Below the pieces are notes generated by a model. That model was not told the DNA's origin. It saw only the letters and a program-made list of their open reading frames with translations, and did no database searches. Shown piece after piece: positions 144-55,559 of a stretch of DNA of 64,000 bases. The position numbers and the translations under genes were made by a program. Position 1 is the first letter of the stretch; each line of letters begins with the position of its first letter. This DNA comes from Candidatus Poribacteria bacterium. GTDB taxonomy: Bacteria > Poribacteria > WGA-4E > WGA-3G. The DNA lies in the NCBI GenBank assembly GCA_965204285.1, contig OZ241980.1, forward strand, positions 4,269,987 through 4,333,986, given 5' to 3'.

Positions 144-260
144 TTCTCTGGTCTTGATAGATTTTCACAATAACAGAGTGGAGTCTACCAAATCCTCTTA
201 TGTGCTGCTGTGTTACCTACCTCAACGCGCAGCATTACTATAATAAAAGAGACGAATAAA

Positions 261-1076
261 ATGAGAACGCAAAAGTTCAAACCTATCTTGATCGCAATCA
301 CCGCTATCGTATACCTTTTCCTTATTGTTCAAAATAGCGAGGCTATTCGGATTGTTGAGATGGACCCAAGCCATGGTACCGAAGTTTATTCTTCTGGGGG
401 TGTCAACTACCATACAGCTTATGTACGAACGACTGAAGGTTTAGACTCCGTAGAATGGTACGTTGGTGCTGAATTAGCACATACGAGTGTAATGACGAAT
501 GGTGAGACAGAAGCTTATTTCTCTCCCTACTGGTTAGGAGGCAATCTGCAAGGGATAGATTATACGATCACTGCCGTTGCAATTTCTGACGAGGATGAGG
601 ATGAGGATGGCGAACCGGATACGGACAGTCGTTCCTATGAGTTAAAGGTCTGGGAGTCTGTTGTGGTGCCGCTCGTTTCTAACCACACCAATACTTCTGG
701 ATACGTAGAAATTACCAAACTCTACTATGATTCGGGATCCGCCGTTTGCGATGGTAACATCTATGTGTATAATCTGAGTTCCGACGAAACGTATGATATA
801 GTAGACTGGGGTGGCCGCCTTTCATGCTATGCAACTAACGATGGCCAAGTCCTTGCACCCGATGAGAAAAAGCATATATGGGGAGGGACATTAGGTCCCG
901 GTGAAACTTTTAGTAAATCCATAGCTCTCTCCATGGATCTTGCCTCAAGAGGTGCAAATGATGGGACACAGTACACGATGCAAGCCGATTATTGGATAAA
1001 CTTATCAACCGGTGATGACAATGAGGTAGATGGTGTTAACGTTTCGGATACCCATGGTTTCACATATCACCCCTAA
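261..1076 (+). CDS. hypothetical secreted/anchored protein with acidic DEDEDEDGEPDTD linker
   Basis: ORF track 210..1076. ATG at 261 precedes a hydrophobic segment (ILIAITAIVYLFLIVQNSEA) that looks like a signal peptide or anchor. No recognisable catalytic motif. Confidence 0.5.
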   Translation: MRTQKFKPILIAITAIVYLFLIVQNSEAIRIVEMDPSHGTEVYSSGGVNYHTAYVRTTEGLDSVEWYVGAELAHTSVMTNGETEAYFSPYWLGGNLQGIDYTITAVAISDEDEDEDGEPDTDSRSYELKVWESVVVPLVSNHTNTSGYVEITKLYYDSGSAVCDGNIYVYNLSSDETYDIVDWGGRLSCYATNDGQVLAPDEKKHIWGGTLGPGETFSKSIALSMDLASRGANDGTQYTMQADYWINLSTGDDNEVDGVNVSDTHGFTYHP

Positions 1077-1089
1077 TAGGAGGTTACCA

Positions 1090-2091
1090 ATGATCAGAAA
1101 GTTGATAACCTACTGTCTGCTATTATGCTTTCCGAGTCTTGCTGCCGCCAAAATCGTGTTCATTTCAAATCGAGATGGTGGCAACAATATCTATATGATG
1201 GACGATGATGGCAGCAATGTCCAGAGACTCACCTTCACAGAGGCTCCGCAAGTCGATGGGGGACCTATTTGGTCCCCCGATGGCACACGCATTGCGTTTG
1301 AGAGAGATACAGATGCGGCTAAGCGTAAAACAAATCAAAAGTATGATATATTCCTGATGGATGCCGATGGCAGCAACGTGCAGCAGCTTACAGACGATCA
1401 CGCACTGGATGGCACAGGTACGTGGTCCCCGGATGGGCATCGTATTGCATTTACCAGCACCCGAAACAAGGGGTTTGATATCTATGTAATGGATATTTTA
1501 ACCCGAGAAGTTGAGCAACTGACGCACAACCCAGGGAATCGAGAATGGGCTAAGAGACCCTCCTGGTCGCCCAATGGCAAATATATTGCCTACGAACAGG
1601 CGATCAACGGAGGCTTTTTAAATGCGGGGACAACGATCTATATAATGAATGCAAACGGCAACGGGGCAAAAGAGCTTGTTCCCCCTCATAATGAGTGGTC
1701 ACGCGCGTCCCCCCGCTGGTCGCCCGATAGCAAATCTATTTTATACCACGAGTCACATTTCGCTTTAGTCGGGCAGATCACAAAGAAGGTTGCCAGCAAT
1801 GTTGTGATTCAGCGGCACGGTAGCAAAACACGGAGGATTTTAAATACTCCAAAAAATTGGTTAGTTAATAATGTGTGTTGGATGGATAACGGAAAACAGG
1901 TGCTGATTGCCGCGCGGGAAGGTATAGATGAGAAGAATGACATCTATCGGTATCACCTTGTTACCGGACAGATAACTAACCTTACAAACCATCCAGCATC
2001 TGACTACTCAATGGATTGGATCAGTGATGATGTGCTGTCTGTAACGCCACAAGGCAAAAAAACAGTCCAGTGGGGAGCACTTAAGAAGTAA
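1090..2091 (+). CDS. TolB-like PD40 (WD40-like) beta-propeller periplasmic protein
   Basis: Repeated W-SPDG/SPNG PD40 motifs (IWSPDGTRIAF, TWSPDGHRIAF, SWSPNGKYIAY, RWSPDSKSILY). Signal peptide (CLLLCFPSLAAA). ATG at 1090 preceded by TAGGAGG. Confidence 0.75.
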   Translation: MIRKLITYCLLLCFPSLAAAKIVFISNRDGGNNIYMMDDDGSNVQRLTFTEAPQVDGGPIWSPDGTRIAFERDTDAAKRKTNQKYDIFLMDADGSNVQQLTDDHALDGTGTWSPDGHRIAFTSTRNKGFDIYVMDILTREVEQLTHNPGNREWAKRPSWSPNGKYIAYEQAINGGFLNAGTTIYIMNANGNGAKELVPPHNEWSRASPRWSPDSKSILYHESHFALVGQITKKVASNVVIQRHGSKTRRILNTPKNWLVNNVCWMDNGKQVLIAAREGIDEKNDIYRYHLVTGQITNLTNHPASDYSMDWISDDVLSVTPQGKKTVQWGALKK

Positions 2092-2144: not shown

Positions 2145-2184
2145 GAGAGGCAAGTAACGGGACGGTTACCTGCCTCTCTTTTTT
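2145..2184 (+). terminator. Rho-independent terminator, 14-bp stem (1 mismatch) plus T6
   Basis: GAGAGGCAAGTAAC-gggacg-GTTACCTGCCTCTC followed by TTTTTTG, 54 nt after the TolB-like stop. Confidence 0.6.
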
Positions 2185-2281
2185 GTTATTGGTATTCTCT
2201 GCCTCAGTTTTATATCCCAATTTATTTGCCATTTTTTCATCTGTGTGGTATCCTATATCTTCAAGGAGGAATACGGAACCT

Positions 2282-3040
2282 GTGGCATCTATTAATGACA
2301 TCGCAAACGAATTTATCCGAGAAGAAATTGAAGAATACCTTGAACGTCCCGATGAGATTGAGTTTTTCATTGAGATGTTCACCCAAGCAACGCCCGAAAT
2401 GCAGGACATCGCCGCTGCACTGATTGATGGTGACCATCACACCGTTGATGAATTAACACAAGAATCACTCGCGGAAGGTACAGAAGCATTGGAAATTATG
2501 GACGACGGACTGATTTCAGGGATGGGTATCGTTGGCATTAAGTTTCGCGAGAACTTTATTTTTGTGCCCGAAGTGCTTGCATGCGCCCGTGCAATGAAAG
2601 CAGGCATGGCACATATTGAACCTATACTCTCCGATTCAGGAATTGAACCTGTCGGCACGGTGATTATGGGCACAGTCAAGGGGGACCTACACGACATTGG
2701 CAAAAACTTGTGTATCATGATGTTGCGAGGTGCAGGTTTTGTCGTCCACGATTTGGGCGTAGATACCTCCGAAGATGACTTTATAGAGGCAGTGGAAGAA
2801 TACGAAGCACCAATCTTAGGGATGTCCGCACTGCTAACGACAACAATGCCAAATATGGGCAAAACAATTGATGCTTTTATTGACGAAGACCTGCGTGAGG
2901 AAGTCAAAATTATGGTCGGCGGTGCTCCTGTTACACAAATATTCGCTGATGATATGGGGGCTGATGGATACGGTAAGGATGCCTTGGCGTGTGTTGCGCT
3001 CGCAAAACATTTTCTTGAGGCAGAAGATGAAGAATGGTAA
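2282..3040 (+). CDS. corrinoid (cobalamin-binding) protein, MtaC/MtmC/MtgC-like cognate corrinoid protein of a methyltransferase system
   Basis: B12-binding DxHxxG motif (GDLHDIGKN) and downstream S-x-L / GG elements (MSALLTT, MVGGAPV). B12-binding N-terminal cap-like helical region. Likely GTG start at 2282, 7 nt after AAGGAGGA. The ORF-track 2183 start would add a hydrophobic leader that I judge spurious. Confidence 0.7.
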   Translation: MASINDIANEFIREEIEEYLERPDEIEFFIEMFTQATPEMQDIAAALIDGDHHTVDELTQESLAEGTEALEIMDDGLISGMGIVGIKFRENFIFVPEVLACARAMKAGMAHIEPILSDSGIEPVGTVIMGTVKGDLHDIGKNLCIMMLRGAGFVVHDLGVDTSEDDFIEAVEEYEAPILGMSALLTTTMPNMGKTIDAFIDEDLREEVKIMVGGAPVTQIFADDMGADGYGKDALACVALAKHFLEAEDEEW

Positions 3041-3064
3041 AACCGTGTCAGGTATTTTTTGTAG

Positions 3065-4963
3065 ATGAAAAAAATAGACAAAACAGAATACGAAAAACGA
3101 CTGAATAAAATTACAGAGATTTTTGAAGAACTCGTTGTCCACGCTGACGAACAGTCAAGCTACCGTTGCCCTTACAAAAATCGCTTTGACCACTGCACGG
3201 CAAAATTCGGCTGCCGAAACCAACGTAAAATTGATGAAGGCACGGGACTCCTATGCGTAGGAGATGACAAGTTAGATTATCGCAGTGCATGGGAAATCGA
3301 CCCAAACGACGAGACAGGCCAGCCACACCAGAAAGCGAAAGGCACAATCACTTGTAAAGGTAAAACATATCAACTCTCCCCCGGAAAAACCGTCTTTGAC
3401 TATGCAGATGATTTAGCCGTACAAGTTCCTACCTCGTGCTTCCGAACAGGGCAATGCCACGAATGTATCGTTGAGATCAAACAAGGTATGGACAGCCTTC
3501 GTCCACCCAACGAGGCAGAGGCATTTCTCCGAGACAACTATCGACTCGCCTGCCAAGCCGTTGTCCTGAACGTAGATGAGCATATTGAATTCACACCGCT
3601 ACGGCGCACGCCAAAAATTCTGACACATATCGGCACAGAAAACGACACACCCCTATCTCTGAATCCGTTGGTCACACATCGCGATGGAATTGTCTATTAC
3701 GACAACGAACCCGTTGATAGATTTCGGGGGCACATCTATGGACTTGCATTAGACATTGGCACGACGACTGTGGTAGCGAATCTCGTGGATTTAGAAAGCG
3801 GCGAAACTGTCTCTGTAAGTTCATTTGAAAATCCACAACGTTTCGGTGGAAGTGACATCATGCACCGAATTTCTTATGATGGTGAGTTTGAGGGTGAATT
3901 ACGTAAATCGCTGATAGCAGCATTGAATAGTCAAATCATGGAGATGTGTGAAAGACACAACTTTGTTCGTCAGGAAATTTATGAGATCGTTGTAGCAGGT
4001 AATACAACCATGCGCGACATCTTTTTTAGACAAGATGTCCAAAGCATTGGGCAGAAACCGTATAAATCCGTCATTGAGTATGAATATCGTGACGGTATCC
4101 GTTCAACGACATCACTGACCGAGAAATCTCGTAGACTCGGTATTCGTTCCAATCCGAAAGCGATGGTCCATAGTTTACCGTTGATTGCAAGCCACGTTGG
4201 AGCAGATGTTGCAGCAGATTTAGTTGCAGTTGACATGCAATCACAAGACGAAGTTATTATGCTGGTTGATGTTGGCACAAATACTGAGGTCGTTGTTGGC
4301 AATGCAAAGCGGATGGTTGCGGCCTCGTGTCCAGCCGGTCCTGCGTTTGAAGGCGGTGGCATAGAATATGGGATGCCTGCTTACCCGGGGGCAATTGAAT
4401 CGGTGAAATGGGTTGACGGTGAGATTGGCTACGAGACGATTGGTAAAGAAATACCGCAAGGCTTATGCGGTTCGGGGCTAATTTCCCTACTTGCTGAACT
4501 TCGCCGCCACAATCAGATGAGCGCAAAAGGCGTTTTTGCTGATAGAAAACAGCGGATAATGCCGCTTTTACCTGAACACGGTATTACCTTCTCACGCGAT
4601 GACGCAAGCAACTTAGCACAAGCAAAGGCAGCAAACTATTGTGGGCAATACATTGTTCTCCGCCATTTCGGTTGTTCTCCGCAAGACATCACTAAACTCT
4701 ATTTAGCAGGCGGTTTTGCCAACTATGTTAACGTACAAGATGCCATTGACATCGGTTTTCTTGCACCTGTCCCTCAAGATCGGATTGTCAAAATTGGGAA
4801 CGCAGCAGTAGGTGGTGCAAAAGCAGTCTTACTTTCAAGAGAAAAACGGGCGGAGATTGAAAAATTCGTCCAAAACATTGAACATATTGAACTTGAAACA
4901 ACCCCTGATTTCTTTGAGATATTTGTTGATGGGTGTCAATTCAAGCCGATGTCTATGGAATAA
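3065..4963 (+). CDS. RACo/RamA-like ATP-dependent reductive activator of corrinoid proteins (COG3894-type): N-terminal [2Fe-2S] ferredoxin plus ASKHA ATPase
   Basis: Plant-type ferredoxin Cys pattern CFRTGQCHEC...LACQAVV. An extra N-terminal Cys cluster (CPYKNRFDHCTAKFGC). ASKHA phosphate motif (LALDIGTTTV). Confidence 0.65.
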   Translation: MKKIDKTEYEKRLNKITEIFEELVVHADEQSSYRCPYKNRFDHCTAKFGCRNQRKIDEGTGLLCVGDDKLDYRSAWEIDPNDETGQPHQKAKGTITCKGKTYQLSPGKTVFDYADDLAVQVPTSCFRTGQCHECIVEIKQGMDSLRPPNEAEAFLRDNYRLACQAVVLNVDEHIEFTPLRRTPKILTHIGTENDTPLSLNPLVTHRDGIVYYDNEPVDRFRGHIYGLALDIGTTTVVANLVDLESGETVSVSSFENPQRFGGSDIMHRISYDGEFEGELRKSLIAALNSQIMEMCERHNFVRQEIYEIVVAGNTTMRDIFFRQDVQSIGQKPYKSVIEYEYRDGIRSTTSLTEKSRRLGIRSNPKAMVHSLPLIASHVGADVAADLVAVDMQSQDEVIMLVDVGTNTEVVVGNAKRMVAASCPAGPAFEGGGIEYGMPAYPGAIESVKWVDGEIGYETIGKEIPQGLCGSGLISLLAELRRHNQMSAKGVFADRKQRIMPLLPEHGITFSRDDASNLAQAKAANYCGQYIVLRHFGCSPQDITKLYLAGGFANYVNVQDAIDIGFLAPVPQDRIVKIGNAAVGGAKAVLLSREKRAEIEKFVQNIEHIELETTPDFFEIFVDGCQFKPMSME

Positions 4964-4991
4964 AAAAGACGTAAGGAGAAAAGACACAAGC

Positions 4992-5993
4992 GTGGAAACT
5001 TTTCGTGAACGTATAAAATCTGATAAACCGATACTATATGATGGCGGATTTGGATCGCAGCTTTTTGCTCGTGATATTGAACTCGCCAACAGTGCACTTG
5101 CTAACGAATCTCATCCTGATGATATTGTAGGTATCCATTTAGATTATATCAGTGCTGGTGCTGAGGCAATCGGCACAAATACATTTGTCGTGTCCCCTCT
5201 TCACCTGGAAATGGCAGGACAGGATAAATCAGATGCGCAACGACTCACACGACTTGGCGTGGAGCATGCAAAGCGTGCAGTTGGGGCAAGTGATAAACAA
5301 ATATACATTGCCGGTTCTGTTGGACCATCGCCAGGTGCTATTGAAGCAGATAGTGGCGATACAACTTTCGGTATTCCAAATGCTGACGTTAGGGAAGCAC
5401 ATAAACTGGTAATCTATACGCTTGCAGAAGAAGGTGTTGATTTTCTCTGTCTTGAGACAATGTTTTCTGCGAAAGAAGCCGCTATCGCTGTTGATATTGC
5501 CCGCGAGACAGACCTACCGATAGCGGTGAATATGACATACAAATGGACGAAAGAACGCAGCACAGGCAAAGAGATTTATAAAACCGACTGGGGACATTCT
5601 GCTGCCGACTTACTCCAAATGCTTGCCAGCGGTGAATTTTCGGGAGGGGACTCACTTTTAGATTATGTTAATATTATCGGTCTAAACTGCGGCGCAGAAT
5701 CAAAGCGAACGGAACATTCGGGCATGCCGTACGCCATCACTGGTACCGAGCAACTCCATGCCGCATTATCAGAAATAGGTATCAACGGCAAACGCATGAT
5801 GGCATATCCAAACGCTGGAATGCCCGAACTTGATGAAAATTATGAAACTGTCTATACACAAACATCAACAGAGATGGCTGGTCATATCCCCGCACTCATT
5901 GAAGCAGGTGCATACATAATCGGGGGTTGTTGTGGCACTACGCCTTCACATATAAAGGCTTTCCGTGAGGCAATTGATGCGAACGCGCGTTAA
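4992..5993 (+). CDS. homocysteine/thiol S-methyltransferase-domain protein (Pfam S-methyl_trans; MetH N-terminal-module-like, zinc-dependent)
   Basis: YDGGFGSQL, ISAGAEAIGTNTF, IGLNCG and C-terminal GGCCGTTP (the Zn Cys triad arrangement of MetH/BHMT). Start placed at GTG 4992 after TAAGGAGAA. The ORF-track start 4812 overlaps the previous gene by 150 nt. Confidence 0.65.
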   Translation: METFRERIKSDKPILYDGGFGSQLFARDIELANSALANESHPDDIVGIHLDYISAGAEAIGTNTFVVSPLHLEMAGQDKSDAQRLTRLGVEHAKRAVGASDKQIYIAGSVGPSPGAIEADSGDTTFGIPNADVREAHKLVIYTLAEEGVDFLCLETMFSAKEAAIAVDIARETDLPIAVNMTYKWTKERSTGKEIYKTDWGHSAADLLQMLASGEFSGGDSLLDYVNIIGLNCGAESKRTEHSGMPYAITGTEQLHAALSEIGINGKRMMAYPNAGMPELDENYETVYTQTSTEMAGHIPALIEAGAYIIGGCCGTTPSHIKAFREAIDANAR

Positions 5994-6597
5994 AATTTGT
6001 GGCATAATCAATCTTACAGATGCAGAAATAGCAATAGCAGCAGGTGCAGATGCCCTCGGATTTATTTTTGTGCCGGAAACGCCACGTTACATAAAACCCA
6101 CCGATGCAGCTGAAATCATCCGCGCGTTACCTCCGTTTATTACAACAGTTGGCGTTTTCAGGAATGTTGAACACGAAGTCATTGAGGGTATTGCTATGCA
6201 AACCAGTATCACATCTATTCAATTACATGGCGGAGAATCACCAGAATTTTGCACACAAATATCACTACCTGTCGTTAAGGTATTTGAACTACAAAACGAA
6301 AGAGATTTACAAACCTTAAACGATTATAACGTGAGTGCATATCTCGTAGATAAACCAAAATTCATCTCAGGTGGGACGATCAATTTGGAATTAGCACTGA
6401 AGGCGCGACATCAAACAAAAAGGTTGATCCTTGCTGGCGGTTTAAACCCAGAAAATGTCGCTAAAGCGATCAAATATGTTAAGCCGTATGCTGTTGATGT
6501 TGCCAGTGGCGTTGAATCGGAAAAACGTAGCAAAGACCCAAGAAAAATTAAGGCGTTCATCGGAGCGGTTAGACGAGCTGATGAAGTAAGAACGTAA
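5977..6597 (+). CDS. trpF: N-(5'-phosphoribosyl)anthranilate isomerase
   Basis: VKICGI...AGADALGFIFVPETPRYI, typical TrpF N-terminus; about 205 aa. Overlaps the end of the upstream methyltransferase gene (stop 5991-5993). Confidence 0.7.
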   Translation: MRTRVKICGIINLTDAEIAIAAGADALGFIFVPETPRYIKPTDAAEIIRALPPFITTVGVFRNVEHEVIEGIAMQTSITSIQLHGGESPEFCTQISLPVVKVFELQNERDLQTLNDYNVSAYLVDKPKFISGGTINLELALKARHQTKRLILAGGLNPENVAKAIKYVKPYAVDVASGVESEKRSKDPRKIKAFIGAVRRADEVRT

Positions 6598-6599: not shown

Positions 6600-7097
6600 A
6601 TGCAAACAATAACCTTAACCTATAAAAGACTGCCGAATCGGGTTAATTATTTCAAACAGCAACTGCTTTATGAAGACGAAAGGGTTATTGTCACATCTCA
6701 ACGCGTAAAACCATCCTCTCCAATCATTTTAAACGGTGAAACAGTTTTAGATGATAATTACACTGCAATCTGGTTTGTGTTTACAGGATTGTGGTACGAC
6801 ATCGGTAAAATCTATAATCTTAAGGATGAATGGACAGGATATTATTGCGATATTATGAAACCCGTTAAGCGGAGTCCAGATCAATTCGAAATTGTTGACC
6901 TATTTCTTGATTTGTGGGTAACCCCCAATGGTAATTATGAAATCCAAGATGAAGATGAGTTTGAAACCGCCCTTGAAGAGGGTATTATAAGCACTGAATT
7001 AGCAGAAAAAGCGAGGCATGCGTTAGACGACTTAATCAGTGAAGTCGTGTCAGGAAAATTTCCGCCCGAATTTGTGAAAAATTTTGGAGCTCAATAA
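6600..7097 (+). CDS. DUF402 (FomD/Ntdp-like nucleoside-diphosphatase fold) protein
   Basis: Family-like YxD..KP...W.DLxLD pattern (YCDIMKPV...DLFLDLWVTPNG). Call from memory of the family. Confidence 0.4.
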   Translation: MQTITLTYKRLPNRVNYFKQQLLYEDERVIVTSQRVKPSSPIILNGETVLDDNYTAIWFVFTGLWYDIGKIYNLKDEWTGYYCDIMKPVKRSPDQFEIVDLFLDLWVTPNGNYEIQDEDEFETALEEGIISTELAEKARHALDDLISEVVSGKFPPEFVKNFGAQ

Positions 7098-7114
7098 ACA
7101 ATTGGAGACTTCAC

Positions 7115-8323
7115 ATGTCTATTTTAGCAACCAATGGCGGTGAACCGATCCGCACCAAACCTTATCCTACATGGCCTACCCTTGATCCTGCCGACACAGA
7201 AGCATTTGAAAGTATCTACAACAGCAGGCAATGGGGTGTTGGCGGGACAAAAGTGCCTGAATTTGCGAAACAATTTGCTGAATTCCAAGGCGCAAACTAT
7301 GGTGTTTGTGTAAATAGCGGCACCACAGCACTCTATATTGCTTTAAAAGCGGCGGAGGTAGGTCCAGGCGATGAAGTAATTACTACTCCGTATACATTTC
7401 AGGCTACCATCGTTGCCATCCTGATGACACATGCAGTGCCTGTTTTTGTAGACACTGCACCCGACAGTTTTCTGTTGGATATTTCCAAAGTGGAAGATGC
7501 CATCACAGAAAAGACGAAAGCGATCCTACCTGTTCATATTGCCGGTTATCCTGCTGATCTTGACGCGCTCGTAGATATTGGCAATCGACATAATCTAAGG
7601 ATTATTGAGGACTGCGCGCAGGCGCACGGTGCTGAATGGCGTGGCAGAGGTGTTGGGAGTTGGGGAGATTTCGGATGTTTCAGTTTCCAATCATCAAAAA
7701 ACCTATGTGCTGGCGAGGGCGGAATCGTTTTGATGAATGATAGAGAACTCTATGAACGCGCCTGGGCACTCCACAACTGTGGACGCACACCACCTGATGC
7801 AGAATCCGGCAATATAGAACCGTTTGGCGGAAATTTCAGAATGACAGAATGGCAGGCGGGACTCCTCCTCTCACGCTTAACACGACTTGAGGCTGAAACT
7901 AACCACAGACACATGAATATGCGCTGGTTAGACGGTTGGTTCGGTGAAATTCCGGGTATCAAGGTAACACCGCTTGATCCGCGTGCAACGAGATGCGGTT
8001 CTCACGGCTACAAGACGATTTTCGATTCAGAAGAGTTTGAAGATATATCGCGTAGCACGTTTATCAGCGCGATGCGCGCAGAAGGCATTCCTATCGGATA
8101 TTGGTACAGCACGCCGATGTATCGTGCCTCGTTTCTTTCCTCTAATCTTTTTGGCAGTGACCTTGATTTTTCAGATGTTCACTGTGCCGAAACCGAAAAA
8201 ATTTGTCAATCAGGACTTGCCTTTGGTCAAAATGTTTTAATGGGAACAGAGGAAGATATGGAAGACATTATTAAGGCGGCAATAAAAATCAGACGTAATG
8301 TGGGCGAATTAAAGAAAGGTTGA
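7115..8323 (+). CDS. DegT/DnrJ/EryC1/StrS-family PLP-dependent sugar aminotransferase
   Basis: GTTALYIALKA, DCAQAHGAEW, catalytic-Lys motif FQSSKNLCAGEGG. Confidence 0.8.
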   Translation: MSILATNGGEPIRTKPYPTWPTLDPADTEAFESIYNSRQWGVGGTKVPEFAKQFAEFQGANYGVCVNSGTTALYIALKAAEVGPGDEVITTPYTFQATIVAILMTHAVPVFVDTAPDSFLLDISKVEDAITEKTKAILPVHIAGYPADLDALVDIGNRHNLRIIEDCAQAHGAEWRGRGVGSWGDFGCFSFQSSKNLCAGEGGIVLMNDRELYERAWALHNCGRTPPDAESGNIEPFGGNFRMTEWQAGLLLSRLTRLEAETNHRHMNMRWLDGWFGEIPGIKVTPLDPRATRCGSHGYKTIFDSEEFEDISRSTFISAMRAEGIPIGYWYSTPMYRASFLSSNLFGSDLDFSDVHCAETEKICQSGLAFGQNVLMGTEEDMEDIIKAAIKIRRNVGELKKG

Positions 8324-10065: not shown

Positions 10066-11973
10066 TTACCAATGCTTAAACGAATACATCCGCTGTCCGA
10101 AAGATAAACCCAAAATCGCCCATAAACTGCCCATGACAAATTCACCCAACATTGCACCAAAAAATAGCGGTAATGCCTTACGGTATGCACCAATTCCGCC
10201 GTGCCGGACAAGTATGGACTTTATTACCCATGCTAAGAACACAGGAAACCAAAGCCTCCCAAAGTTCCAATTGCCAGCAAGCGGATAGGCGAGTGGGTGA
10301 AGTTGCCACCAGATAAAACGCAATCGCATAAAAAGTGTGCTTAAAGTCAGAACAATGCCGAATCCGAAGAAGCCGAGATGCCGCCATTCTGTTTCACTCG
10401 GAAATGTCAACCAGCGTTGAAGGTCATTAAACGCTTCTTGCCCACGCCATGTTCCCAAACTTCCGTGTAGATAGCCAGCGTGTAGGAAGGCGACAAACCC
10501 AATAAGCAGTCCAATAACAGACGATCCCCACATGACCCAAAGCAGTTGACGACTGTTGATTGCACCTTTTTCAGCAAGCTTAAAACCTTCAAGTTGATTC
10601 GGCATCGGTTGCGAACGATAGTTGCGGGTAAACCCGTAGAGGAATGCAAATCCCGTTAAGGTTTGTGCCCCAATCTTCCTTGAACCGAAAAGTGAAGTTA
10701 GGAAAAAACTTGGACCGGCACGATAGAAATCCTGTGTCGGTGTTCCGAGTTCTGCCCGCATCCGTGTGAACGCCAAAACCAGTATGAAATGGATACTGAA
10801 AAATCCAACGATTCCCCACCACGACATGCCTGCCTTTAGGCAAAATCCAAACACAATGGCAATACTAATCAGAAATCCGAAAAACGCACTGCGATACCCT
10901 ATCGGTTCACTTGACGAATCAAGGTCAGTTCTCATACCAATGATATTGCGAAATACTTTCCATAAGTGCTTATGCGTTATCCAAAGTGCAAAGAAACACA
11001 GTCCAAAGTATGCACCAAGCGATTGCATATCAATATGCGGGTAACCAGGTGTTTGGTTCAAACCTGACATAGCCCCGAATATAAGTTGCACTTTCCAAAA
11101 AAGATAGAACACCCAGCAAGATAACGACAAATCAAGCGGCATTAAAAAACCGATGCCGATGGCGTAAGGATTTAGGTGAATAGGGGTTGAACCAATTGCG
11201 TTTAAGGGTTTTTCAGTAAACAACCGCCCAATGTCATGTCGAATAGGAATCGCGGGAACAAAGGGAAAAAGGAAATTCATCCCGTTTAGCAGGTCAAGTC
11301 CTAATCCTACGCCGAATCCGATCCAAAGGAGTCTATTACGGTAGAAAACACTGCCTTTCGTCATTTCAAACGGAAGTAAAATAATAGGGTAACTCAGTTT
11401 TTCGTGTTCAATCCACTGTTTTCGGAGAATCGCGCTCAGCATTATCATAGAAAAAGCGAGCGCAGAAAAGAAAAGTAACCAGAACAGGACAGGCGTGAGC
11501 CATGCCCGAATGTGATCTATTTCAAACAGATTCGATGTGCCTTCGTAATAACCTGTCAAGGCATTGCGATCCATCACAGCAATCCAGTCCGGTATATGCC
11601 GAAAGAAAAGGGATTGCCACTCATTTTCAGGTGTAGCGAACCAACTTGCATGCCCAAGAATACACATCGTTGCCTGCAACAAATCATGTCCGCAGACAAC
11701 GCATGCAAGCGTTACCATGAGATATGTTGTAAGCATTTCTCCTTGTGTCAGCTGCCATTTCGGAAGATATCGTGTTAGGAATAGGTTACAGATTGCAACA
11801 AGGAATAGCGTAAAGACGGCGTTGAAAAAGATCGCCATCGTGGTAGGATATTGTGTTGTCCAGACAGTTTCTGTTTGAACAACAAGGTATATATTGAGGG
11901 GAAGCGACAGCAGACCTATAATTATGGCTCGCCAGGTGATATTTTCAGTTGATAAGCGAGGCGATTTATCCAT
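10066..11973 (-). CDS. large polytopic integral membrane protein (at least 12 predicted TM helices), function unknown
   Basis: 635-aa ORF with many hydrophobic segments. Possibly a DUF678x-type family; not assignable by eye. Confidence 0.55.
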   Translation of the reverse strand: MDKSPRLSTENITWRAIIIGLLSLPLNIYLVVQTETVWTTQYPTTMAIFFNAVFTLFLVAICNLFLTRYLPKWQLTQGEMLTTYLMVTLACVVCGHDLLQATMCILGHASWFATPENEWQSLFFRHIPDWIAVMDRNALTGYYEGTSNLFEIDHIRAWLTPVLFWLLFFSALAFSMIMLSAILRKQWIEHEKLSYPIILLPFEMTKGSVFYRNRLLWIGFGVGLGLDLLNGMNFLFPFVPAIPIRHDIGRLFTEKPLNAIGSTPIHLNPYAIGIGFLMPLDLSLSCWVFYLFWKVQLIFGAMSGLNQTPGYPHIDMQSLGAYFGLCFFALWITHKHLWKVFRNIIGMRTDLDSSSEPIGYRSAFFGFLISIAIVFGFCLKAGMSWWGIVGFFSIHFILVLAFTRMRAELGTPTQDFYRAGPSFFLTSLFGSRKIGAQTLTGFAFLYGFTRNYRSQPMPNQLEGFKLAEKGAINSRQLLWVMWGSSVIGLLIGFVAFLHAGYLHGSLGTWRGQEAFNDLQRWLTFPSETEWRHLGFFGFGIVLTLSTLFMRLRFIWWQLHPLAYPLAGNWNFGRLWFPVFLAWVIKSILVRHGGIGAYRKALPLFFGAMLGEFVMGSLWAILGLSFGQRMYSFKHW

Positions 11974-23596: not shown

Positions 23597-25051
23597 TTAT
23601 AGATCCTGACTGGCAGTAGTATACGTCTTAAGGTGCTTTAAAGCACTCCCATCGTCCATCACCGATTGTGCGCGCTTGAGTGCTTCGTGTGGGTCCGAAC
23701 ATATCCCTAACAGATAATCTACCATAGCCGTGTTGAGAAGAATCCTATCGTAAATCTGTCCTTTTTCGCCCGATAACGCAGCTACACCTGCTTCTGCAAA
23801 AGCATCCGCGCTAACATTTTCTGGGCGTGGATTCAGAGCATATTCAAACCCATAGATTTTAGGATCGATATCTAAAGCGAAGTCTTCACGTTTGCCTTTA
23901 ATGCATCGAAAACCTTGAGAATAATTGACCGCCATCCTGTCGGGTGTAGAGGGTTTTCCGAGTCGCAGTGCATAATGGCTCGTGCCTTCTTCCCCTTTAA
24001 CAGCAACTGCAGCCTGAAACCCTCGTTCCAACGCCATCTGAAGTAAAGGTTTTTCATAACCAATATGATAATATCCAAGCACCATATAGTTTGCTTTTCG
24101 GGCAGAAAAGAATTGTTGTGCCTTCTCAGTTGCAGCCCATGGTGGTCGTTTCTTGATATGCACCCGTAATTCCCGCACTTTATATGCCCCTGGCGAATAT
24201 TCTCGTTGACTGATATATCCAAAACCAACCGATTTATTGGTGATGAGCGAGGCAGTCTGTTCAAGAGATAGGTCAGTCTTTGCGCCGAGTGCTTGCAAAA
24301 TAGACTCTTCAGTTACCCCATTTTTCGGTGGCATCACATCCACACTATGAAGAAGTGAGGGTTCTCCTAATGCTGCACGGACAGCTGCAACAAAAAGGGT
24401 TGGACGAAAATAACGCGTTGCGCCATCGTAAGGTTGACCAAAATGCGTAAGCGTATCCACATCAATCGGGCGAACCTGCTCAGGTGCAAAATAGGCATCA
24501 AGGTATCCTCGCACCTCCTCGTAAGTTTCTCTGTTCATGCGTTGTCCGATAAGTGCGGCGCCTTTCAGGGCAGGTTTAACATCATCAGTGAGGATAGCCT
24601 CACACATCTGTCGAGTTTCAGCATAACTCAAATGTTTTGCCCTTAATATTTTTTCTAATGCTTTCACGACAATGGCTTCTGTCGGATTTCTCGGAATATA
24701 CCCAGGTTCTGGGTTCATGAGAAATTGAATCTCTTTGGGAAGACGAGGCAATAATGTGGGTTGGTATTTCTGGAATGCTGCTTTTTCCGCGTGGGACCAT
24801 TGCGTTGCCTCAGGAAAATATTTTCGAAGCGTCATTGCAACGAAAAACGCTCCCATCTGTGCCTCAGAAACAGTTTCTTTATCTCCTAATTCACCTTCCA
24901 AAGATTTTAAGATGGTTTCAAGGATAGCATCAGGTTGTGGTCCATCGTTAGGTTTCTTTCCTAAAGGTCGTGTTTGGTGTGGACCTGTGCAGACTCGTGC
25001 TTGTGCTTCAAGCATCTCTTCATTGGGTCCGGGATATTGTGGCGTATACAT
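23597..25051 (-). CDS. divergent glycosyltransferase-family-3 (anthranilate phosphoribosyltransferase TrpD-like) protein
   Basis: Weak resemblance to the TrpD N-terminal helical domain (ILETILKSLEGELGDKETVSEAQMGAFFVAMTLRK) and core (ILQALGAKTDLSLEQ...GFGYI). GTGGD motif not found. Tentative. Confidence 0.3.
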   Translation of the reverse strand: MYTPQYPGPNEEMLEAQARVCTGPHQTRPLGKKPNDGPQPDAILETILKSLEGELGDKETVSEAQMGAFFVAMTLRKYFPEATQWSHAEKAAFQKYQPTLLPRLPKEIQFLMNPEPGYIPRNPTEAIVVKALEKILRAKHLSYAETRQMCEAILTDDVKPALKGAALIGQRMNRETYEEVRGYLDAYFAPEQVRPIDVDTLTHFGQPYDGATRYFRPTLFVAAVRAALGEPSLLHSVDVMPPKNGVTEESILQALGAKTDLSLEQTASLITNKSVGFGYISQREYSPGAYKVRELRVHIKKRPPWAATEKAQQFFSARKANYMVLGYYHIGYEKPLLQMALERGFQAAVAVKGEEGTSHYALRLGKPSTPDRMAVNYSQGFRCIKGKREDFALDIDPKIYGFEYALNPRPENVSADAFAEAGVAALSGEKGQIYDRILLNTAMVDYLLGICSDPHEALKRAQSVMDDGSALKHLKTYTTASQDL

Positions 25052-25238: not shown

Positions 25239-26648
25239 ATGCTTTTGACAATCACAACGACTTATTCTCCTGCGACAGACCTTGGATTTCTGTTGCATAA
25301 GCACCCTGAACGACTTCAATCCTTTGATCTTGCTTTCGGGCAAGCGCATGTCTTTTATCCTGAAGCGAATACGGAAAAATGTACAGCTGCCTTATTACTT
25401 GATGTGGATTCTGTTGGGTTGGTCCGTCGTTATCACGGACAGGTGCGGGATAATTTCGCACTGGCGGAATATGTCAACGACCGCCCTTATGTCGCCTCCT
25501 CATTTATGAGCGTAGCAATTGCCAAAGTGTTTAGCAGCGCGTTATCAGGGAAAAGTAAAGATCGTCCTGAACTTGTGGAAACACCGATACCCTTAAGTGC
25601 AAAGTTATCCACGTTGCCGTGTCGGGGTGGAGAAAAGTTCTTGAGACGGCTCTTTGAACCACTTGGATATAATGTGAATGCTGAAAGACACATCTTAGAT
25701 GCACAGTTCACAGATTGGGGTGAAAGTCGTTATTTCAGTGTCACTTTGGATAAAGTTTGCCGTTTGAGTGAACTCCTCACACATCTTTACGTTTTAATCC
25801 CTGTGCTTGATGATGAAAAACATTACTGGGTCGACCAAGCAGAAATAGATAAACTATTGAAACACGGTGGTGATTGGCTTTCCGAACATCCTGAACAGGA
25901 ATCTATTGTTAATCGTTACCTGAAACGTCAACGTAGACTTACCCGTCAAGCACTTGCTCAATTGCGTGAAACAGATGTTGATGAAATTGAAGAACAGATT
26001 CAAGAAGAAGCACAGATTGAAGAGCGCATTGGTCTAAACGAAATCCGTTTAACCAAGACGACTGAGGTAATCAAAGAGTCCGGAGCAAAACGGGTTCTTG
26101 ATTTAGGGTGTGGTGAAGGAAAACTTCTACGAAAACTGATGGCAGAAAAACAGTTTGAAGAGATTGTAGGCGTAGATGTTTCACATCGATCACTAAAAAT
26201 CGCACAGCAGAGGCTGCATTATGATCGGTTACCTGACAAACAGAAGGAGCGCCTCAAGCTTTTTCAAGGGTCTCTCTGCTATCGAGATAAAAGGTTAGGG
26301 GGATATGACGCAGCGGCTGTAATAGAGGTAATCGAACATTTAGATCCTCCACGTCTTTCTGCCTTTGAAAGAGTTCTATTTGAATTCGCACGCCCACAAA
26401 TGGTTGTATTGACAACGCCTAATGTGGAATATAACGTAAAGTTTGAGAATCTGCCAGAGGGACGATTTCGACACAGAGACCATCGTTTTGAATGGACACG
26501 GGAAGAATTTCAATCTTGGGCATCGGATATTTCCAACTGCTTTGGCTATGCTGTTGTGTTTCACCCAATCGGAGAAACAGATGAAGATGTTGGCTCACCG
26601 ACTCAGATGGCTGTGTTTACAGAAGAAAGATCCGAACAGAAAACCTAA
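25239..26648 (+). CDS. hen1: bacterial Hen1 RNA 3'-terminal 2'-O-methyltransferase (RNA repair)
   Basis: N-terminal bacterial-Hen1 domain (MLLTITTTYSPATDLGFLLHKHPER). C-terminal SAM MTase (VLDLGCGEGKLL). Adjacent to pnkp. Confidence 0.75.
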   Translation: MLLTITTTYSPATDLGFLLHKHPERLQSFDLAFGQAHVFYPEANTEKCTAALLLDVDSVGLVRRYHGQVRDNFALAEYVNDRPYVASSFMSVAIAKVFSSALSGKSKDRPELVETPIPLSAKLSTLPCRGGEKFLRRLFEPLGYNVNAERHILDAQFTDWGESRYFSVTLDKVCRLSELLTHLYVLIPVLDDEKHYWVDQAEIDKLLKHGGDWLSEHPEQESIVNRYLKRQRRLTRQALAQLRETDVDEIEEQIQEEAQIEERIGLNEIRLTKTTEVIKESGAKRVLDLGCGEGKLLRKLMAEKQFEEIVGVDVSHRSLKIAQQRLHYDRLPDKQKERLKLFQGSLCYRDKRLGGYDAAAVIEVIEHLDPPRLSAFERVLFEFARPQMVVLTTPNVEYNVKFENLPEGRFRHRDHRFEWTREEFQSWASDISNCFGYAVVFHPIGETDEDVGSPTQMAVFTEERSEQKT

Positions 26649-26699
26649 ATATCATTTCTGACTGTAGTTTGATTAACCATTTGTAATTGATTTTGAAAT

Positions 26700-35600: not shown

Positions 35601-35909
35601 GCAGAGAGGTTACCGAAAGAGACGGCACTATTAATGAACTATCCAAATCCGTTCAACCCAGAGACTTGGATACCTTATCAGCTGGCAAAACCAACAGAGG
35701 TAGTTATTTCTATCCATTCTGTAGATGGGAAGCTTGTTCGGAGGCTGGTGTTAGGGCATTTACCTGTGGGTATATATCGTAGCAAATCTCGCGCTGCACA
35801 TTGGGATGGTCGGAATGAGTCGGGTGAACTTGTGGCAAGTGGTGTCTATTTTTATACACTCACTACTGATAATTTTACGGCTACTCGCAAAATGCTCATT
35901 CAGAAGTAA
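32673..35909 (+). CDS. internalin-like LRR surface protein, in-frame fusion of two paralogous LRR units, with C-terminal dockerin-like pair plus T9SS-type CTD
   Basis: TTG start conserved with paralogs (AAGGGGA RBS). About 33 22-residue LRRs (L..LTNLT.LDL..N.ISDVSPL). A second N-cap (VHIPDRGLRTALEFAL...C...C) at about aa 320. C-terminus DVNRDGVVNITD / DVNNDGVVDIRD then NYPNPFNPETWIPYQL...GVYFYTL. Confidence 0.75.
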   Translation: MIFSTYIGSIHKKSKRLNLRLTQVGGLILFVYMFFLGHHQMATAQTVHIPDPGLRAVLELALDKEVGDDITQADMESLKTLQAVKSGIHDLTGLEFATNLEILEFGQNQISDISPLKDLIKLTKLRLGDNREISDASPLKNLTNLTFLDIDSNQVSDVSPLKNLINLTWLDLDDNGISDLSPLSTLTKLRYLDLDGNLISDLSPLSTLTNLTFLDLDENEISDFSILSTLINLTVLDLEGNKISDVSPLSTLINLTELDLHNNKISDVSPLSNLINLTVLDLRGNQISDFSPINGLIDNLVEYYNSDQTIPTHIPENVNRDGNPELVHIPDRGLRTALEFALSKTPVENITQSDMASLKVLQASKCRYLGLAEVGARAPNRWECGFTDVTSGYSIQNLTGLEFATNLRELHLGRNEISDVSPLKNLTELTYLDLGNNQQISDVSPLRNLTNLTFLNLRFNRISDISPLKNLTKLIELGLRGNELSDVTPLRPLISLKYLSVRDNRLSDVTPLRNLTQLVILNLRENNISDVTPFKGLVNLTHLYLRENQVLDVSPLRDMINMRELDLEDNQVSDVTPLRDMTELVYLDMDSNAVPDVSALKNMTKLRILDFSDNQISDISPLTDMLYLSRLDLDDNPILDVSPLENLTRLIWLDLDDNEILDVSPLKNLTRLTWLDLDDNQISDLSPLKNLMELTYLDLDGNEISDLSPLKDMTKLEVLDLDGNNISDVSPLSTLINLIELDLHDNEISDISALQNMTNLMDLDIDDNQITDVSPLKNMIKLTILDADGNLILNVSPLKDLTNLTELDLHDNEISDISALQNMTKLKVLDLRGNQISDFSPIAGLIDNLVEYYNSNQTFPAYKREDVNRDGVVNITDLVLAATNFDDPDLTVLARRNLYPDVNNDGVVDIRDLVLIAAEIGSAAAPALSKSSIETSNLTAKNLTQWIRLAKKLDMSNLQMQKGVAVLEQLLAVLSHAERLPKETALLMNYPNPFNPETWIPYQLAKPTEVVISIHSVDGKLVRRLVLGHLPVGIYRSKSRAAHWDGRNESGELVASGVYFYTLTTDNFTATRKMLIQK

Positions 35910-36029
35910 GAGATGATTACATCAGGTCTTTTAGTTTGATGTATATGCTGCTTGTTTCTTTCTGAATCCTTGCTTGTAGAAACTTTCAGAATTTCCTGAT
36001 TAACCGAAAACAAAGGAGCAAGAAATATC

Positions 36030-55548: not shown

Positions 55549-55559
55549 GGGAACGGTTT

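What the first reader, a model, noticed from the sequence alone, without database searches (positions are those of the whole stretch)
2282..6597. Corrinoid methyl-transfer cassette lacking a substrate methyltransferase, with trpF translationally overlapped
Three consecutive genes encode:
- a B12-binding corrinoid protein (DxHxxG)
- a RACo/RamA-type [2Fe-2S]-ASKHA reductive activase
- a stand-alone Zn-dependent homocysteine/thiol S-methyltransferase domain (GGCCGT)

Together these look like a split, MetH-like, methylcorrinoid:thiol methyltransferase with its own ATP-dependent reactivation. But no methyl-donor (MtaB/MttB/MtgB-type or pterin-binding) component is in the window, so donor and acceptor remain unknown.

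trpF follows with an overlapping start/stop, then DUF402 and DegT genes. This context is odd for tryptophan biosynthesis.
Basis: partly seen in the sequence, partly recalled or inferred. Interest (0 to 1): 0.55.

Follow-up and report, generated by a model that had tools for sequence, protein, structure and literature searches.

The report
Split B12 methionine synthase, pared down

Summary
Window 2282-5993 encodes a corrinoid protein, a RACo/RamA-type reductive activase and a stand-alone homocysteine S-methyltransferase (HcyMT). trpF overlaps the HcyMT stop by 17 nt. No methyl-donor or pterin-binding gene lies anywhere in the 64 kb.

The organism is a sponge-associated Candidatus Poribacteria (Entoporibacteria). 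The triad is present in all 77 of 82 poribacterial loci long enough to show it.

Orthologous operons carry an MTHFR and a stand-alone pterin-binding protein between the activase and HcyMT genes. I found these in free-living Poribacteria, a Gemmatimonadota MAG and unnamed lineages. Their proteins are 79-87%, 65-71% and 61-66% identical to the window's corrinoid protein, activase and HcyMT.

So the cassette reads as three parts of a split cobalamin-dependent methionine synthase. This kind is genetically established in Phaeobacter and Ruegeria (MtgC/MtgD/MtgE plus RamA). Acceptor: homocysteine (Zn and Hcy motifs invariant). Donor: probably 5-methyl-THF through an unlinked pterin-binding protein. 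I could not locate that protein in Entoporibacteria, and the searches could not have shown its absence.

trpF adjacency is lineage-specific (21 of 82 loci) and looks incidental. Verdict: new member of a known kind, modest interest.

The parts
2146..2185 (+). Intrinsic-terminator hairpin ending the upstream PD40 gene. It marks the 5' boundary of the cassette's transcription unit.
   Evidence: Read directly from the sequence: GAGAGGCAAGTAAC-gggacg-GTTACCTGCCTCTC followed by TTTTTTG. The stem is 14 bp with one mismatch.
2226..2254 (+). Promoter-like site (TTGCCA-17-TATCCT with an extended TG). This is weak evidence only.
   Evidence: The number of such sites in the region is no higher than in shuffled sequence.
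2282..3040 (+). Stand-alone corrinoid (B12-binding) protein, 252 aa. It acts as the methyl carrier, the MtgC/Cbp-like part.
   Evidence: PF02607 + PF02310. DLHDIG at aa 135-140. Best NCBIfam matches are MtgC and pyl_corrinoid, both below cut-off. Best PDB match is 1y80 at E 2e-61; MetH B12 domains reach only about 1e-24. 44% identical to Sinorhizobium MtgC. 81-97% identical across Poribacteria.
3065..4963 (+). RACo/RamA-type ATP-dependent reductive activase of corrinoid proteins, 632 aa. Layout: an about 95-aa N-terminal Cys4 extension, a [2Fe-2S] ferredoxin domain, a middle domain and an ASKHA domain.
   Evidence: Fer2 + Raco_middle + RACo_C_ter. PDB 3zyy (RACo) at E 2e-72 over aa 223-623. 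Motifs. The N-terminal 95 aa have no Pfam hit.
4992..5993 (+). Stand-alone Zn-dependent homocysteine S-methyltransferase domain protein, 333 aa. This is the MtgE/Bmt-like part, a methylcorrinoid:homocysteine methyltransferase.
   Evidence: PF02574 at 177 bits. Best PDB match is the T. maritima MetH Hcy module 1q7m at E 1e-24; BHMT matches only the N-terminal half at E 1e-9. D17, G18, E155, T156, N232, C233, C313 and C314 are invariant in alignment A2.
5977..6597 (+). trpF (phosphoribosylanthranilate isomerase), 206 aa. It overlaps the HcyMT gene by 17 nt. It is probably co-transcribed but not part of the methyl-transfer system.
   Evidence: PF00697. NF002298 scores 216.6 against a cut-off of 215. 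Present at this position in 21 of 82 loci, with the same overlap in 10.
6600..8323 (+). DUF402 (6600-7097) and DegT-family aminotransferase (7115-8323). These are conserved downstream neighbours in Entoporibacteria, with no evident link to methyl transfer.
   Evidence: each present in 81 of 82 loci. They are absent from the orthologous operons of other lineages.

Best explanation
The three genes encode three of the four catalytic or auxiliary parts of a split cobalamin-dependent methionine synthase.

Proposed cycle:
1. The corrinoid protein carries cob(I)alamin bound base-off/His-on through DLHDIG.
2. It is methylated to methyl-cob(III)alamin by a separate methyltransferase. Ancestrally this is a roughly 345-aa pterin-binding protein using 5-methyl-THF made by an MTHFR.
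3. The stand-alone HcyMT activates homocysteine on its Cys3 zinc site and takes the methyl group, producing methionine.
4. When the cofactor is oxidised to cob(II)alamin, the RACo/RamA-type activase uses its [2Fe-2S] cluster and ATP hydrolysis to reduce it back to Co(I). This replaces the SAM/flavodoxin reactivation domain of canonical MetH.

In sponge-associated Poribacteria the MTHFR and pterin-binding genes, and an upstream URO-D-family gene, have been removed from the ancestral operon. The donor module must therefore be encoded elsewhere.

Shown here: domain content, motif conservation, orthology, operon comparisons and phylum-wide conservation.
Inferred: the chemistry, homocysteine as substrate, and 5-methyl-THF as donor in this particular clade.
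For: Domains and motifs:
- Domain and motif content as listed in the observation check.
- The HcyMT is closest to MetH Hcy modules among solved structures.
- It keeps the residues that are invariant across E. coli MetH, MmuM and alphaproteobacterial MtgE.

Conservation:
- All three genes are present in 77 of 82 Poribacteria loci.
- Identity to the window averages 91.5% for the corrinoid protein, 84% for the activase and 79% for HcyMT. That is strong purifying selection.

Orthologous operons elsewhere read corrinoid | RACo | MTHFR-DUF5981 | Pterin_bind | (PF13769) | HcyMT:
- L086-L088 and L092.
- A Gemmatimonadota MAG, L093.
- L094 and L095.
- Ocean contigs labelled Candidatus Poribacteria, L096-L106.
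- Identities to the window proteins: corrinoid 79-87%, activase 65-71%, HcyMT 61-66%.

Precedent in the literature:
- The same division of labour is genetically established in Phaeobacter inhibens. PF02574, PF00809 and cap+B12 proteins plus a Fer2-DUF4445 RamA-like protein all give methionine-auxotroph phenotypes (PMC5764234).
- It is also established in Ruegeria pomeroyi (PMC12478193).
- A Sinorhizobium replicon holds MtgE, MtgC, MtgD and RamA homologues within 17 kb.

Folate supply:
- All 26 Entoporibacteria genomes visible in Table S7 of PMC8546597 carry metF (K00297). They lack KEGG acsE and mttB. So 5-methyl-THF is made and needs a consumer.
Against: - No pterin-binding gene was found in the window or within 10 kb of the triad in any of 82 Poribacteria loci. 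Searches at E 0.5 found no remnant either.
- No Entoporibacteria sequence appeared in the two protein-database searches with pterin-binding queries.
- None appeared in the JGI metagenome scan.
- These negatives are weak. The protein lists stop at 120 rows (at least 62-64% identity), and the expected Entoporibacteria orthologue would be about 57-62% identical.
- Identity to the experimentally studied alphaproteobacterial parts is low: MtgE 28%, MtgC 44%, RamA 33%. No DUF1638 partner is present.
- No NCBIfam equivalog cut-off is reached by any of the three proteins.
- There is no biochemical or genetic evidence for this lineage.
Confidence: 0.72

Rival explanations
1. Folate-independent methyl supply. 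Entoporibacteria lost the pterin-binding module altogether. The corrinoid protein is then methylated by an unlinked, substrate-specific methyltransferase acting on a host- or seawater-derived methylated compound. Candidates are URO-D-family, MttB-family or unrecognised enzymes. HcyMT still makes methionine.
For: - The MTHFR, pterin-binding and URO-D genes present in every orthologous operon are cleanly missing from all 82 Entoporibacteria loci.
- No Entoporibacteria pterin-binding protein surfaced.
- In Ruegeria the same corrinoid protein accepts methyl groups from MttB-family MtgB (PMC12478193).
- The ancestral operon carries a URO-D-family methyltransferase of unknown substrate.
Against: - KEGG mttB is absent from the 26 visible Entoporibacteria genomes, while metF is present in all of them. 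That implies a methyl-THF consumer.
- The negative searches could not have detected an orthologue of 62% identity or less.
- No donor methyltransferase candidate lies in the 64 kb window.
Confidence: 0.13
2. The HcyMT works mainly as a cofactor-independent methyltransferase in the style of BHMT, MmuM or Bmt. It takes methyl groups directly from sulfonium or quaternary-ammonium donors such as DMSP, glycine betaine or S-methylmethionine. The corrinoid protein and activase serve another reaction.
For: - Phaeobacter Bmt, the HcyMT part of its split MetH, makes methionine directly from DMSP or betaine in vitro (PMC12366255).
- PF02574 includes MmuM and BHMT. NCBIfam MmuM and BHMT models give sub-threshold hits.
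Against: - The HcyMT gene is linked to the corrinoid and activase genes in 77 of 82 Poribacteria loci. It is also linked to them in the orthologous operons of other lineages, apart from L095, where no HcyMT gene lies nearby.
- Among solved structures it is closest to MetH Hcy modules. BHMT aligns only over the N-terminal half.
- A direct route would not explain the extreme conservation of the corrinoid protein.
Confidence: 0.06
3. The acceptor is a thiol or selenol other than homocysteine, or the system runs in the demethylating direction. An example would be methyl-sulfur or methyl-selenide metabolism, as proposed for mlp clusters.
For: - Corrinoid, RACE and thiol-methyltransferase clusters without a folate module have been proposed to act in methyl-sulfur or methyl-selenide metabolism (PMC10418091).
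- The family carries clade-specific insertions near the barrel.
Against: - Those clusters use URO-D-family Mlp proteins, not PF02574, and occur in strict anaerobes.
- The DGG and ET motifs shared by homocysteine-using enzymes are invariant here.
- Orthologous operons pair the gene with an MTHFR and a pterin-binding protein.
Confidence: 0.04
4. The triad is a decaying remnant of the ancestral operon with no current function.
For: Four or five genes of the ancestral operon are missing.
Against: - All three ORFs are intact.
- Conservation is strong across 82 loci drawn from about 80 species-level genomes: 81-97%, 78-94% and 74-90% identity.
- The catalytic motifs are retained.
Confidence: 0.02

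Closest known systems
Split cobalamin-dependent methionine synthase of Rhodobacterales. In Phaeobacter inhibens: PGA1_c13370 (Bmt), PGA1_c13350 (Cbp), PGA1_c16040, plus RamA-like PGA1_c15200 and a DUF1638 protein. In Ruegeria pomeroyi: MtgC, MtgD, MtgE, RamA. Sources: PMC5764234, PMC12478193, PMC12366255.
   Same: - Same division into a PF02574 protein, a cap+B12 corrinoid protein and a Fer2 + DUF4445 (RACo_C_ter) activase in place of the MetH reactivation domain.
- The pterin-binding part is encoded at a distance there too.
- The corrinoid protein groups with stand-alone methyltransferase corrinoid proteins rather than with the MetH B12 domain.
   Different: - Only 28% (HcyMT), 44% (corrinoid) and 33% (activase) identity to a Sinorhizobium set.
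- No DUF1638 and no MttB-family MtgB.
- The activase has an extra Cys4 N-terminal domain.
- The ancestral operon of this lineage has an MTHFR-DUF5981 fusion, a PF13769 protein, a URO-D-family protein and a roughly 209-aa protein of unknown family.
- There is no experimental evidence for this lineage.
Canonical multidomain MetH (E. coli, T. maritima, Thermus; PDB 1q7m, 8ssc, 1bmt)
   Same: Homologous Hcy-binding barrel with the Cys3 zinc site, and a homologous cap + Rossmann B12 domain with DxHxxG.
   Different: - Separate polypeptides rather than one chain.
- No pterin domain and no PF02965 reactivation domain in the window.
- Reactivation is predicted to be ATP-driven rather than SAM/flavodoxin-driven.
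RACo of Carboxydothermus hydrogenoformans (PDB 3zyy), AcsV, and RamA of methanogens
   Same: The [2Fe-2S] domain, middle domain and ASKHA ATPase architecture. E 2e-72 to 3zyy. Pfam RACo domains.
   Different: - Scores far below the AcsV (295 vs 800) and RamA (120 vs 500) NCBIfam cut-offs.
- The partner is a monomeric MtgC-like corrinoid protein, not CoFeSP.
- It has an additional N-terminal roughly 95-aa Cys4 region.
Corrinoid methyltransferase systems of anaerobes (MtgBCA for glycine betaine, MtaABC, O-demethylases, mlp clusters)
   Same: Three-component logic, MT1 to corrinoid protein to MT2, plus an ATP-dependent activase. The corrinoid protein's best family hits are MtgC and MtbC.
   Different: MT2 here is a PF02574 homocysteine methyltransferase rather than a THF or CoM methyltransferase. 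No MT1 is linked in this clade.

Membership tests
Split cobalamin-dependent methionine synthase (Price 2018; MtgCDE + RamA of Mausz 2025) | Stand-alone PF02574 protein with the Cys3 zinc site and homocysteine-binding motifs | tested here: met
   PF02574 at 177 bits. D17, G18, E155, T156, N232, C233, C313 and C314 are invariant against E. coli MetH, MmuM and Sinorhizobium/Paracoccus MtgE.
Split cobalamin-dependent methionine synthase (Price 2018; MtgCDE + RamA of Mausz 2025) | Stand-alone corrinoid protein with B12 cap + B12-binding domain and DxHxxG | tested here: met
   PF02607 + PF02310. DLHDIG at aa 135-140. 44% identity to Sinorhizobium MtgC.
Split cobalamin-dependent methionine synthase (Price 2018; MtgCDE + RamA of Mausz 2025) | Separate pterin-binding (PF00809) methyl-THF:corrinoid methyltransferase in the same genome | tested here: inconclusive
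   - Absent from the 64 kb window.
- Absent from the 10 kb either side of the triad in 82 Poribacteria loci.
- Present inside the orthologous operons of pelagic Poribacteria and other lineages.
- The rest of this genome could not be searched. The database searches were truncated above the identity expected for an Entoporibacteria orthologue.
Split cobalamin-dependent methionine synthase (Price 2018; MtgCDE + RamA of Mausz 2025) | RamA-like Fer2 + DUF4445 (RACo_C_ter) activase instead of a PF02965 reactivation domain | tested here: met
   Fer2 + Raco_middle + RACo_C_ter. No PF02965 in the window.
Split cobalamin-dependent methionine synthase (Price 2018; MtgCDE + RamA of Mausz 2025) | DUF1638 (PF07796) partner protein, co-distributed with RamA in Alphaproteobacteria | tested here: not met
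   No PF07796 hit in any window ORF. None was listed in the orthologous operons. This partner defines the alphaproteobacterial version, not the split-MetH principle.
Split cobalamin-dependent methionine synthase (Price 2018; MtgCDE + RamA of Mausz 2025) | Loss of any part causes methionine auxotrophy | not testable with these tools
   The organism is uncultured. This needs heterologous complementation.
Canonical MetH (TIGR02082 / PRK09490) | A single polypeptide with Hcy, pterin, cap, B12 and reactivation modules | tested here: not met
   TIGR02082 gives only partial hits of 128 and 91 bits against a cut-off of 1011. The genes are separate, with no pterin or reactivation module.
MtgBCD glycine-betaine methyltransferase (MttB superfamily donor) | PF06253 MttB-family MT1 in the locus or genome | tested here: not met
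   No PF06253 in the window. KEGG mttB is 0 in the 26 Entoporibacteria genomes visible in Table S7 of PMC8546597. MtgC NCBIfam models score 197 and 179 against cut-offs of 370 and 310.
BHMT / MmuM cofactor-independent homocysteine methyltransferases | Meets the family model, and the stand-alone enzyme uses betaine, SMM or SAM directly | tested here: not met
   Sequence part: PRK07534 (BHMT) scores 117 against 338 and PRK09485 (MmuM) 123 against 215. BHMT structures align only to aa 5-182. Direct donor use was not testable.
RACo / AcsV / RamA reductive activases | [2Fe-2S] or Fe-S domain + middle domain + ASKHA ATPase domain | tested here: met
   The equivalog cut-offs for AcsV and RamA are not reached. 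It is therefore a member of the superfamily, not of those specific families.

The most novel reading that the evidence does not exclude
Sponge-associated Poribacteria have truly lost the folate-binding module of their split methionine synthase, along with the linked MTHFR and URO-D genes. They keep the corrinoid protein, activase and homocysteine methyltransferase under strong selection.

Methionine synthesis in these symbionts would then draw methyl groups from a non-folate donor through an unrecognised corrinoid methyltransferase. The donor could be host-derived. That would be a symbiosis-linked rewiring of one-carbon metabolism.
Probability: 0.12. Interest if true: 0.65.

Novelty: new member of a known kind. 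Interest (0 to 1): 0.3.

Why it matters
**For annotation.** Automated pipelines name these proteins 'homocysteine S-methyltransferase family protein', 'dihydropteroate synthase' or 'hypothetical'. Methionine synthesis and B12 dependence would therefore be missed in Poribacteria. The same applies to the other lineages that share this operon type, where the few named hits are Gemmatimonadota and Acidobacteria. Recognising the cassette as a split MetH fills that gap and marks these abundant sponge symbionts as cobalamin consumers.

**For evolution.** The comparison shows a clean, clade-wide excision of the MTHFR and pterin-binding genes from an otherwise conserved operon. Free-living Poribacteria keep them. 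This gives a concrete, testable question about how one-carbon metabolism was reorganised on the way to symbiosis.

**Limits.** In itself the mechanism is not new.

Tried and rejected
- **Donor gene in the window.** I scanned all ORFs of at least 150 aa with Pfam and ran E. coli MetH by tblastn. Nothing was found.
- **Donor gene near the triad in relatives.** I checked 82 Poribacteria loci of about 21 kb each. There were no pterin-binding, MTHFR or URO-D hits, even at E 0.5.
- **Riboswitch upstream (SAM or cobalamin).** No Rfam hit at gathering score across the window. Only chance-level hits in 1900-2500.
- **Literature on Poribacteria methionine synthase, corrinoid proteins or tetrahydrofolate.** Five searches gave nothing specific.
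- **Plasmid collection.** Nothing above 32% identity. The Paracoccus 'bmt' gene is isolated. A Sinorhizobium replicon supplied the MtgC/D/E and RamA comparators.
- **Pterin-binding protein searches and JGI metagenome scan.** These found the protein in pelagic Poribacteria but not in Entoporibacteria.
- **mlp gene clusters (PMC10418091).** Considered and rejected as the same system: they use multiple URO-D Mlps, have no PF02574 protein, and occur in strict anaerobes.
- **Pseudogenised MetH fragments.** Rejected: the ORFs are intact and strongly conserved.
- **trpF as a functional partner.** Rejected: present at this position in only 21 of 82 loci.
- **Not done.** I made no structure predictions, because sequence-level matches to solved structures were already unambiguous.

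Full report
**1. What is in the sequence**

The region holds a co-directional run of genes with short or negative spacers. A strong hairpin followed by a T-run at 2146-2185 ends the upstream PD40-repeat gene. The cassette therefore starts its own transcription unit.

| Gene | Coordinates | Size | Key evidence |
|---|---|---|---|
| Corrinoid protein | GTG 2282-3040 (AAGGAGG upstream) | 252 aa | B12 cap + B12-binding domain; DLHDIG, SAL and GG motifs |
| Reductive activase | 3065-4963 | 632 aa | 2Fe-2S ferredoxin domain (Cys125/131/134/163), RACo middle domain, ASKHA domain (DIGTT, DVGTN) |
| HcyMT | GTG 4992-5993 | 333 aa | PF02574 at 177 bits; DGG, LET, NC and GGCCGT motifs |
| trpF | ATG 5977-6597 | 206 aa | Overlaps the HcyMT 3' end by 17 nt |
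| DUF402 | 6600-7097 | 165 aa | PF04167 |
| DegT | 7115-8323 | 402 aa | PF01041 |

No riboswitch was detected.

Pfam scans of every ORF of at least 150 aa found no pterin-binding, MttB, MtaB, URO-D, DUF1638 or MetH-reactivation domain. A tblastn of E. coli MetH found nothing beyond the corrinoid and HcyMT genes.

**2. Whose genome it is, and how conserved the cassette is**

The HcyMT has more than 120 database relatives at 77-90% identity. Every named one is 'Candidatus Poribacteria bacterium'.

A scan of one genome per GTDB species found 177 relatives. The best 80 are all Poribacteria MAGs. They include MAGs such as PCPOR1, PCPOR2a, MSPOR6 and SB0670_33, which a published table lists as sponge-associated Entoporibacteria.

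Mapping the window's proteins onto 82 such loci gave these results:
- All three genes are present in all 77 loci long enough to show them, in the same order.
- In most loci they are directly adjacent.
- In about six loci extra genes are inserted, mostly between the corrinoid and activase genes. They look like restriction-modification genes, but I did not scan them against any family library.

Identity to the window proteins:
- Corrinoid protein: 81-97% (mean 91.5%).
- Activase: 78-94%.
- HcyMT: 74-90%.

These genes are intact, strongly constrained and phylum-typical. They are not fragments of a decayed MetH.

**3. trpF and the downstream genes**

- trpF follows HcyMT in only 21 of 82 loci.
- The 17-nt overlap is seen in the window and in 10 close relatives.
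- In the other 11 loci the gap is 19-480 nt.
- 60 loci go straight from HcyMT to DUF402.
- In a pelagic relative, a trpF sits 6 kb away on the other strand.

The overlap is therefore a recent local arrangement, not a functional coupling to methyl transfer. DUF402 and DegT are constant neighbours within Entoporibacteria. They are absent from the orthologous operons of other lineages, so they too look like synteny rather than function.

**4. The decisive comparison**

A search of 50%-identity cluster representatives found few close clusters outside the poribacterial one. After that come 34-41% identical relatives of about 295, 600 and 800 aa. The two I looked up were a YitJ-type HcyMT-MTHFR fusion (597 aa) and a MetH-like protein (841 aa).

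The closest outside cluster (P0271, 64% identical) lies in a single operon on three metagenome contigs. Its gene order is: GntR regulator | 207-aa protein without a Pfam hit | URO-D-family protein | corrinoid protein | RACo | MTHFR fused to DUF5981 (the 'MTHFR C-terminal' Cys-rich domain) | 347-aa pterin-binding protein (PF00809) | HcyMT | 91-aa PF13769 protein.

The same operon, with minor rearrangements, occurs in:
- a 5.7 Mb contig (L092);
- a Gemmatimonadota MAG (L093);
- two further multi-Mb contigs (L094 and L095);
- ocean-water contigs whose proteins NCBI labels Candidatus Poribacteria (L096-L099);
- related TARA and JGI contigs (L100-L106).

In the pelagic Poribacteria, HcyMT is followed directly by a DUF6785 membrane protein. 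The same gene lies at 10066-11973 in the window, so this is the same ancestral locus.

Identities to the window's proteins are 79-87% (corrinoid), 65-71% (activase) and 61-66% (HcyMT). These are orthologues.

The Entoporibacteria cassette is thus a pared-down version of a widespread operon that couples MTHFR, a methyl-THF-binding methyltransferase, a corrinoid carrier, its activase and a homocysteine methyltransferase. That operon is, in effect, MetF plus a split MetH.

**5. What is known**

This division of labour was proposed and genetically supported in Phaeobacter inhibens. Separate PF02574, PF00809 and cap+B12 proteins, a ferredoxin-DUF4445 RamA-like protein and a DUF1638 protein are all needed for growth without methionine (PMC5764234).

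In Ruegeria pomeroyi the corrinoid protein (MtgC) and pterin protein (MtgD) serve two roles. They support methionine synthesis through MtgE and glycine-betaine demethylation through MttB-family MtgB (PMC12478193).

Phaeobacter Bmt, the HcyMT part, also forms methionine directly from DMSP or betaine in vitro (PMC12366255).

In those organisms the parts are partly dispersed in the genome. A missing pterin gene next to the other parts is therefore not unusual.

The poribacterial proteins are only distantly related to a Sinorhizobium set: 28% for MtgE, 44% for MtgC, 33% for RamA, and 32-37% for the pterin proteins of the orthologous operons. The accessory genes also differ. There is no DUF1638 or MtgB. 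Instead this lineage has the MTHFR-DUF5981 fusion, PF13769, a URO-D-family protein and a Cys4 N-terminal extension on the activase.

It is best described as a separate lineage of the same kind of system.

**6. Acceptor and donor**

*Acceptor.* In an alignment with E. coli MetH, E. coli MmuM and Sinorhizobium and Paracoccus MtgE, several positions are invariant:
- the DGG motif (D17, G18);
- the ET motif (E155, T156);
- the first zinc cysteine in NC (C233);
- the CC pair (C313, C314).

That these residues are the zinc ligands and homocysteine contacts of MetH and BHMT is from my own knowledge of those structures.

Among solved structures the best match is the T. maritima MetH Hcy module at E 1e-24, followed by full-length MetH structures. 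BHMT aligns only to the N-terminal half at E 1e-9. Homocysteine is therefore the well-supported acceptor.

*Donor.* In every orthologous operon the donor module is a PF00809 protein next to an MTHFR, so the ancestral donor is 5-methyl-THF. For Entoporibacteria this step is inferred only.
- Published KEGG tables show metF in all 26 visible Entoporibacteria genomes, and no mttB or acsE. This argues that methyl-THF is made and consumed.
- I could not find their pterin-binding protein.
- The negative results do not show absence. The two protein searches list only the best 120 hits, down to 62-64% identity. Entoporibacteria proteins are somewhat more diverged from the queries than the pelagic ones, which themselves sat at the very bottom of the list.

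**7. Verdict**

Its 'missing' component is explained by comparison: the pterin and MTHFR genes were excised from the operon in the sponge-associated clade.

The main open point is where Entoporibacteria encode the donor module, or whether they encode one at all. That leaves a roughly 12% chance of a more interesting, folate-independent arrangement.

Interest is modest. The result is useful for annotating methionine and B12 metabolism in Poribacteria and several other phyla, and it offers a neat example of operon reduction in a symbiont lineage.

Noticed in passing
window 3065-3349 (activase aa 1-95); L093 4143-4418: The activase has an N-terminal extension of about 95 aa with four cysteines (C35, C44, C50, C64). 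It has no Pfam match at E<=1. The extension is conserved in all orthologues, and in a Gemmatimonadota MAG it is a separate 91-aa ORF. It may be an extra metal or Fe-S site, or a docking domain.
   Followed up: partly
L086 2949-4635 and 11013-11288; L092, L093, L099 equivalents: Orthologous operons outside Entoporibacteria always include three extra genes: a roughly 209-aa protein with no Pfam hit, a URO-D-family (PF01208) methyltransferase-like protein, and a 91-aa PF13769 ('Virulence_fact') protein. I found no description of this operon in the papers I read. The URO-D protein could be a second methyl-donor input.
   Followed up: partly
window 25239-29264 (+): An adjacent Hen1 (Hen1_L + methyltransferase) and Pnkp (kinase-phosphatase-ligase) pair, which is the bacterial RNA repair system.
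   Followed up: no
window 32673-43408 (+): Three tandem leucine-rich-repeat proteins (1078, 731 and 785 aa) with dockerin, FlgD-Ig and Por_Secre_tail-like C-termini. They are followed by an FG-GAP/ASPIC protein with dockerin. These are eukaryote-like repeat proteins typical of sponge symbionts.
   Followed up: no
window 43421-61229 (+): A surface-polysaccharide cluster. It holds an epimerase, a MurJ-like flippase, four sulfotransferases, a Wzy_C-like protein, Wzi, glycosyltransferases and a sugar transferase. It also holds two sulfatases carrying dockerin and FlgD-Ig domains (53467-57596).
   Followed up: no
window 23597-25051 (-): A 484-aa protein with a Glycos_trans_3N domain and a weak Glycos_transf_3 match, so TrpD-like or nucleoside-phosphorylase-like. 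It is much longer than a normal TrpD. It is worth a look given the stray trpF 17 kb away.
   Followed up: no
L047, L052, L056, L073, L076 (between the corrinoid and activase genes): In several Entoporibacteria, 2-4 kb of extra genes is inserted between the corrinoid and activase genes without disrupting either. The inserted genes look like restriction-modification genes, including a recurring 437-aa protein, but I did not scan them against any family library.
   Followed up: partly
window 10066-11973 (-): A DUF6785/DUF6784 multi-pass membrane protein. In pelagic Poribacteria it is the immediate downstream neighbour of HcyMT, which marks the conserved ancestral locus.
   Followed up: partly
window 210-2091 (+): A 288-aa protein with no Pfam hit overlaps by 47 nt the start of a PD40 beta-propeller (TolB-like) protein, as the ORFs are called. 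Of the 82 loci only one (L013) shares this upstream pair at high identity, so the region upstream of the cassette is variable.
   Followed up: no
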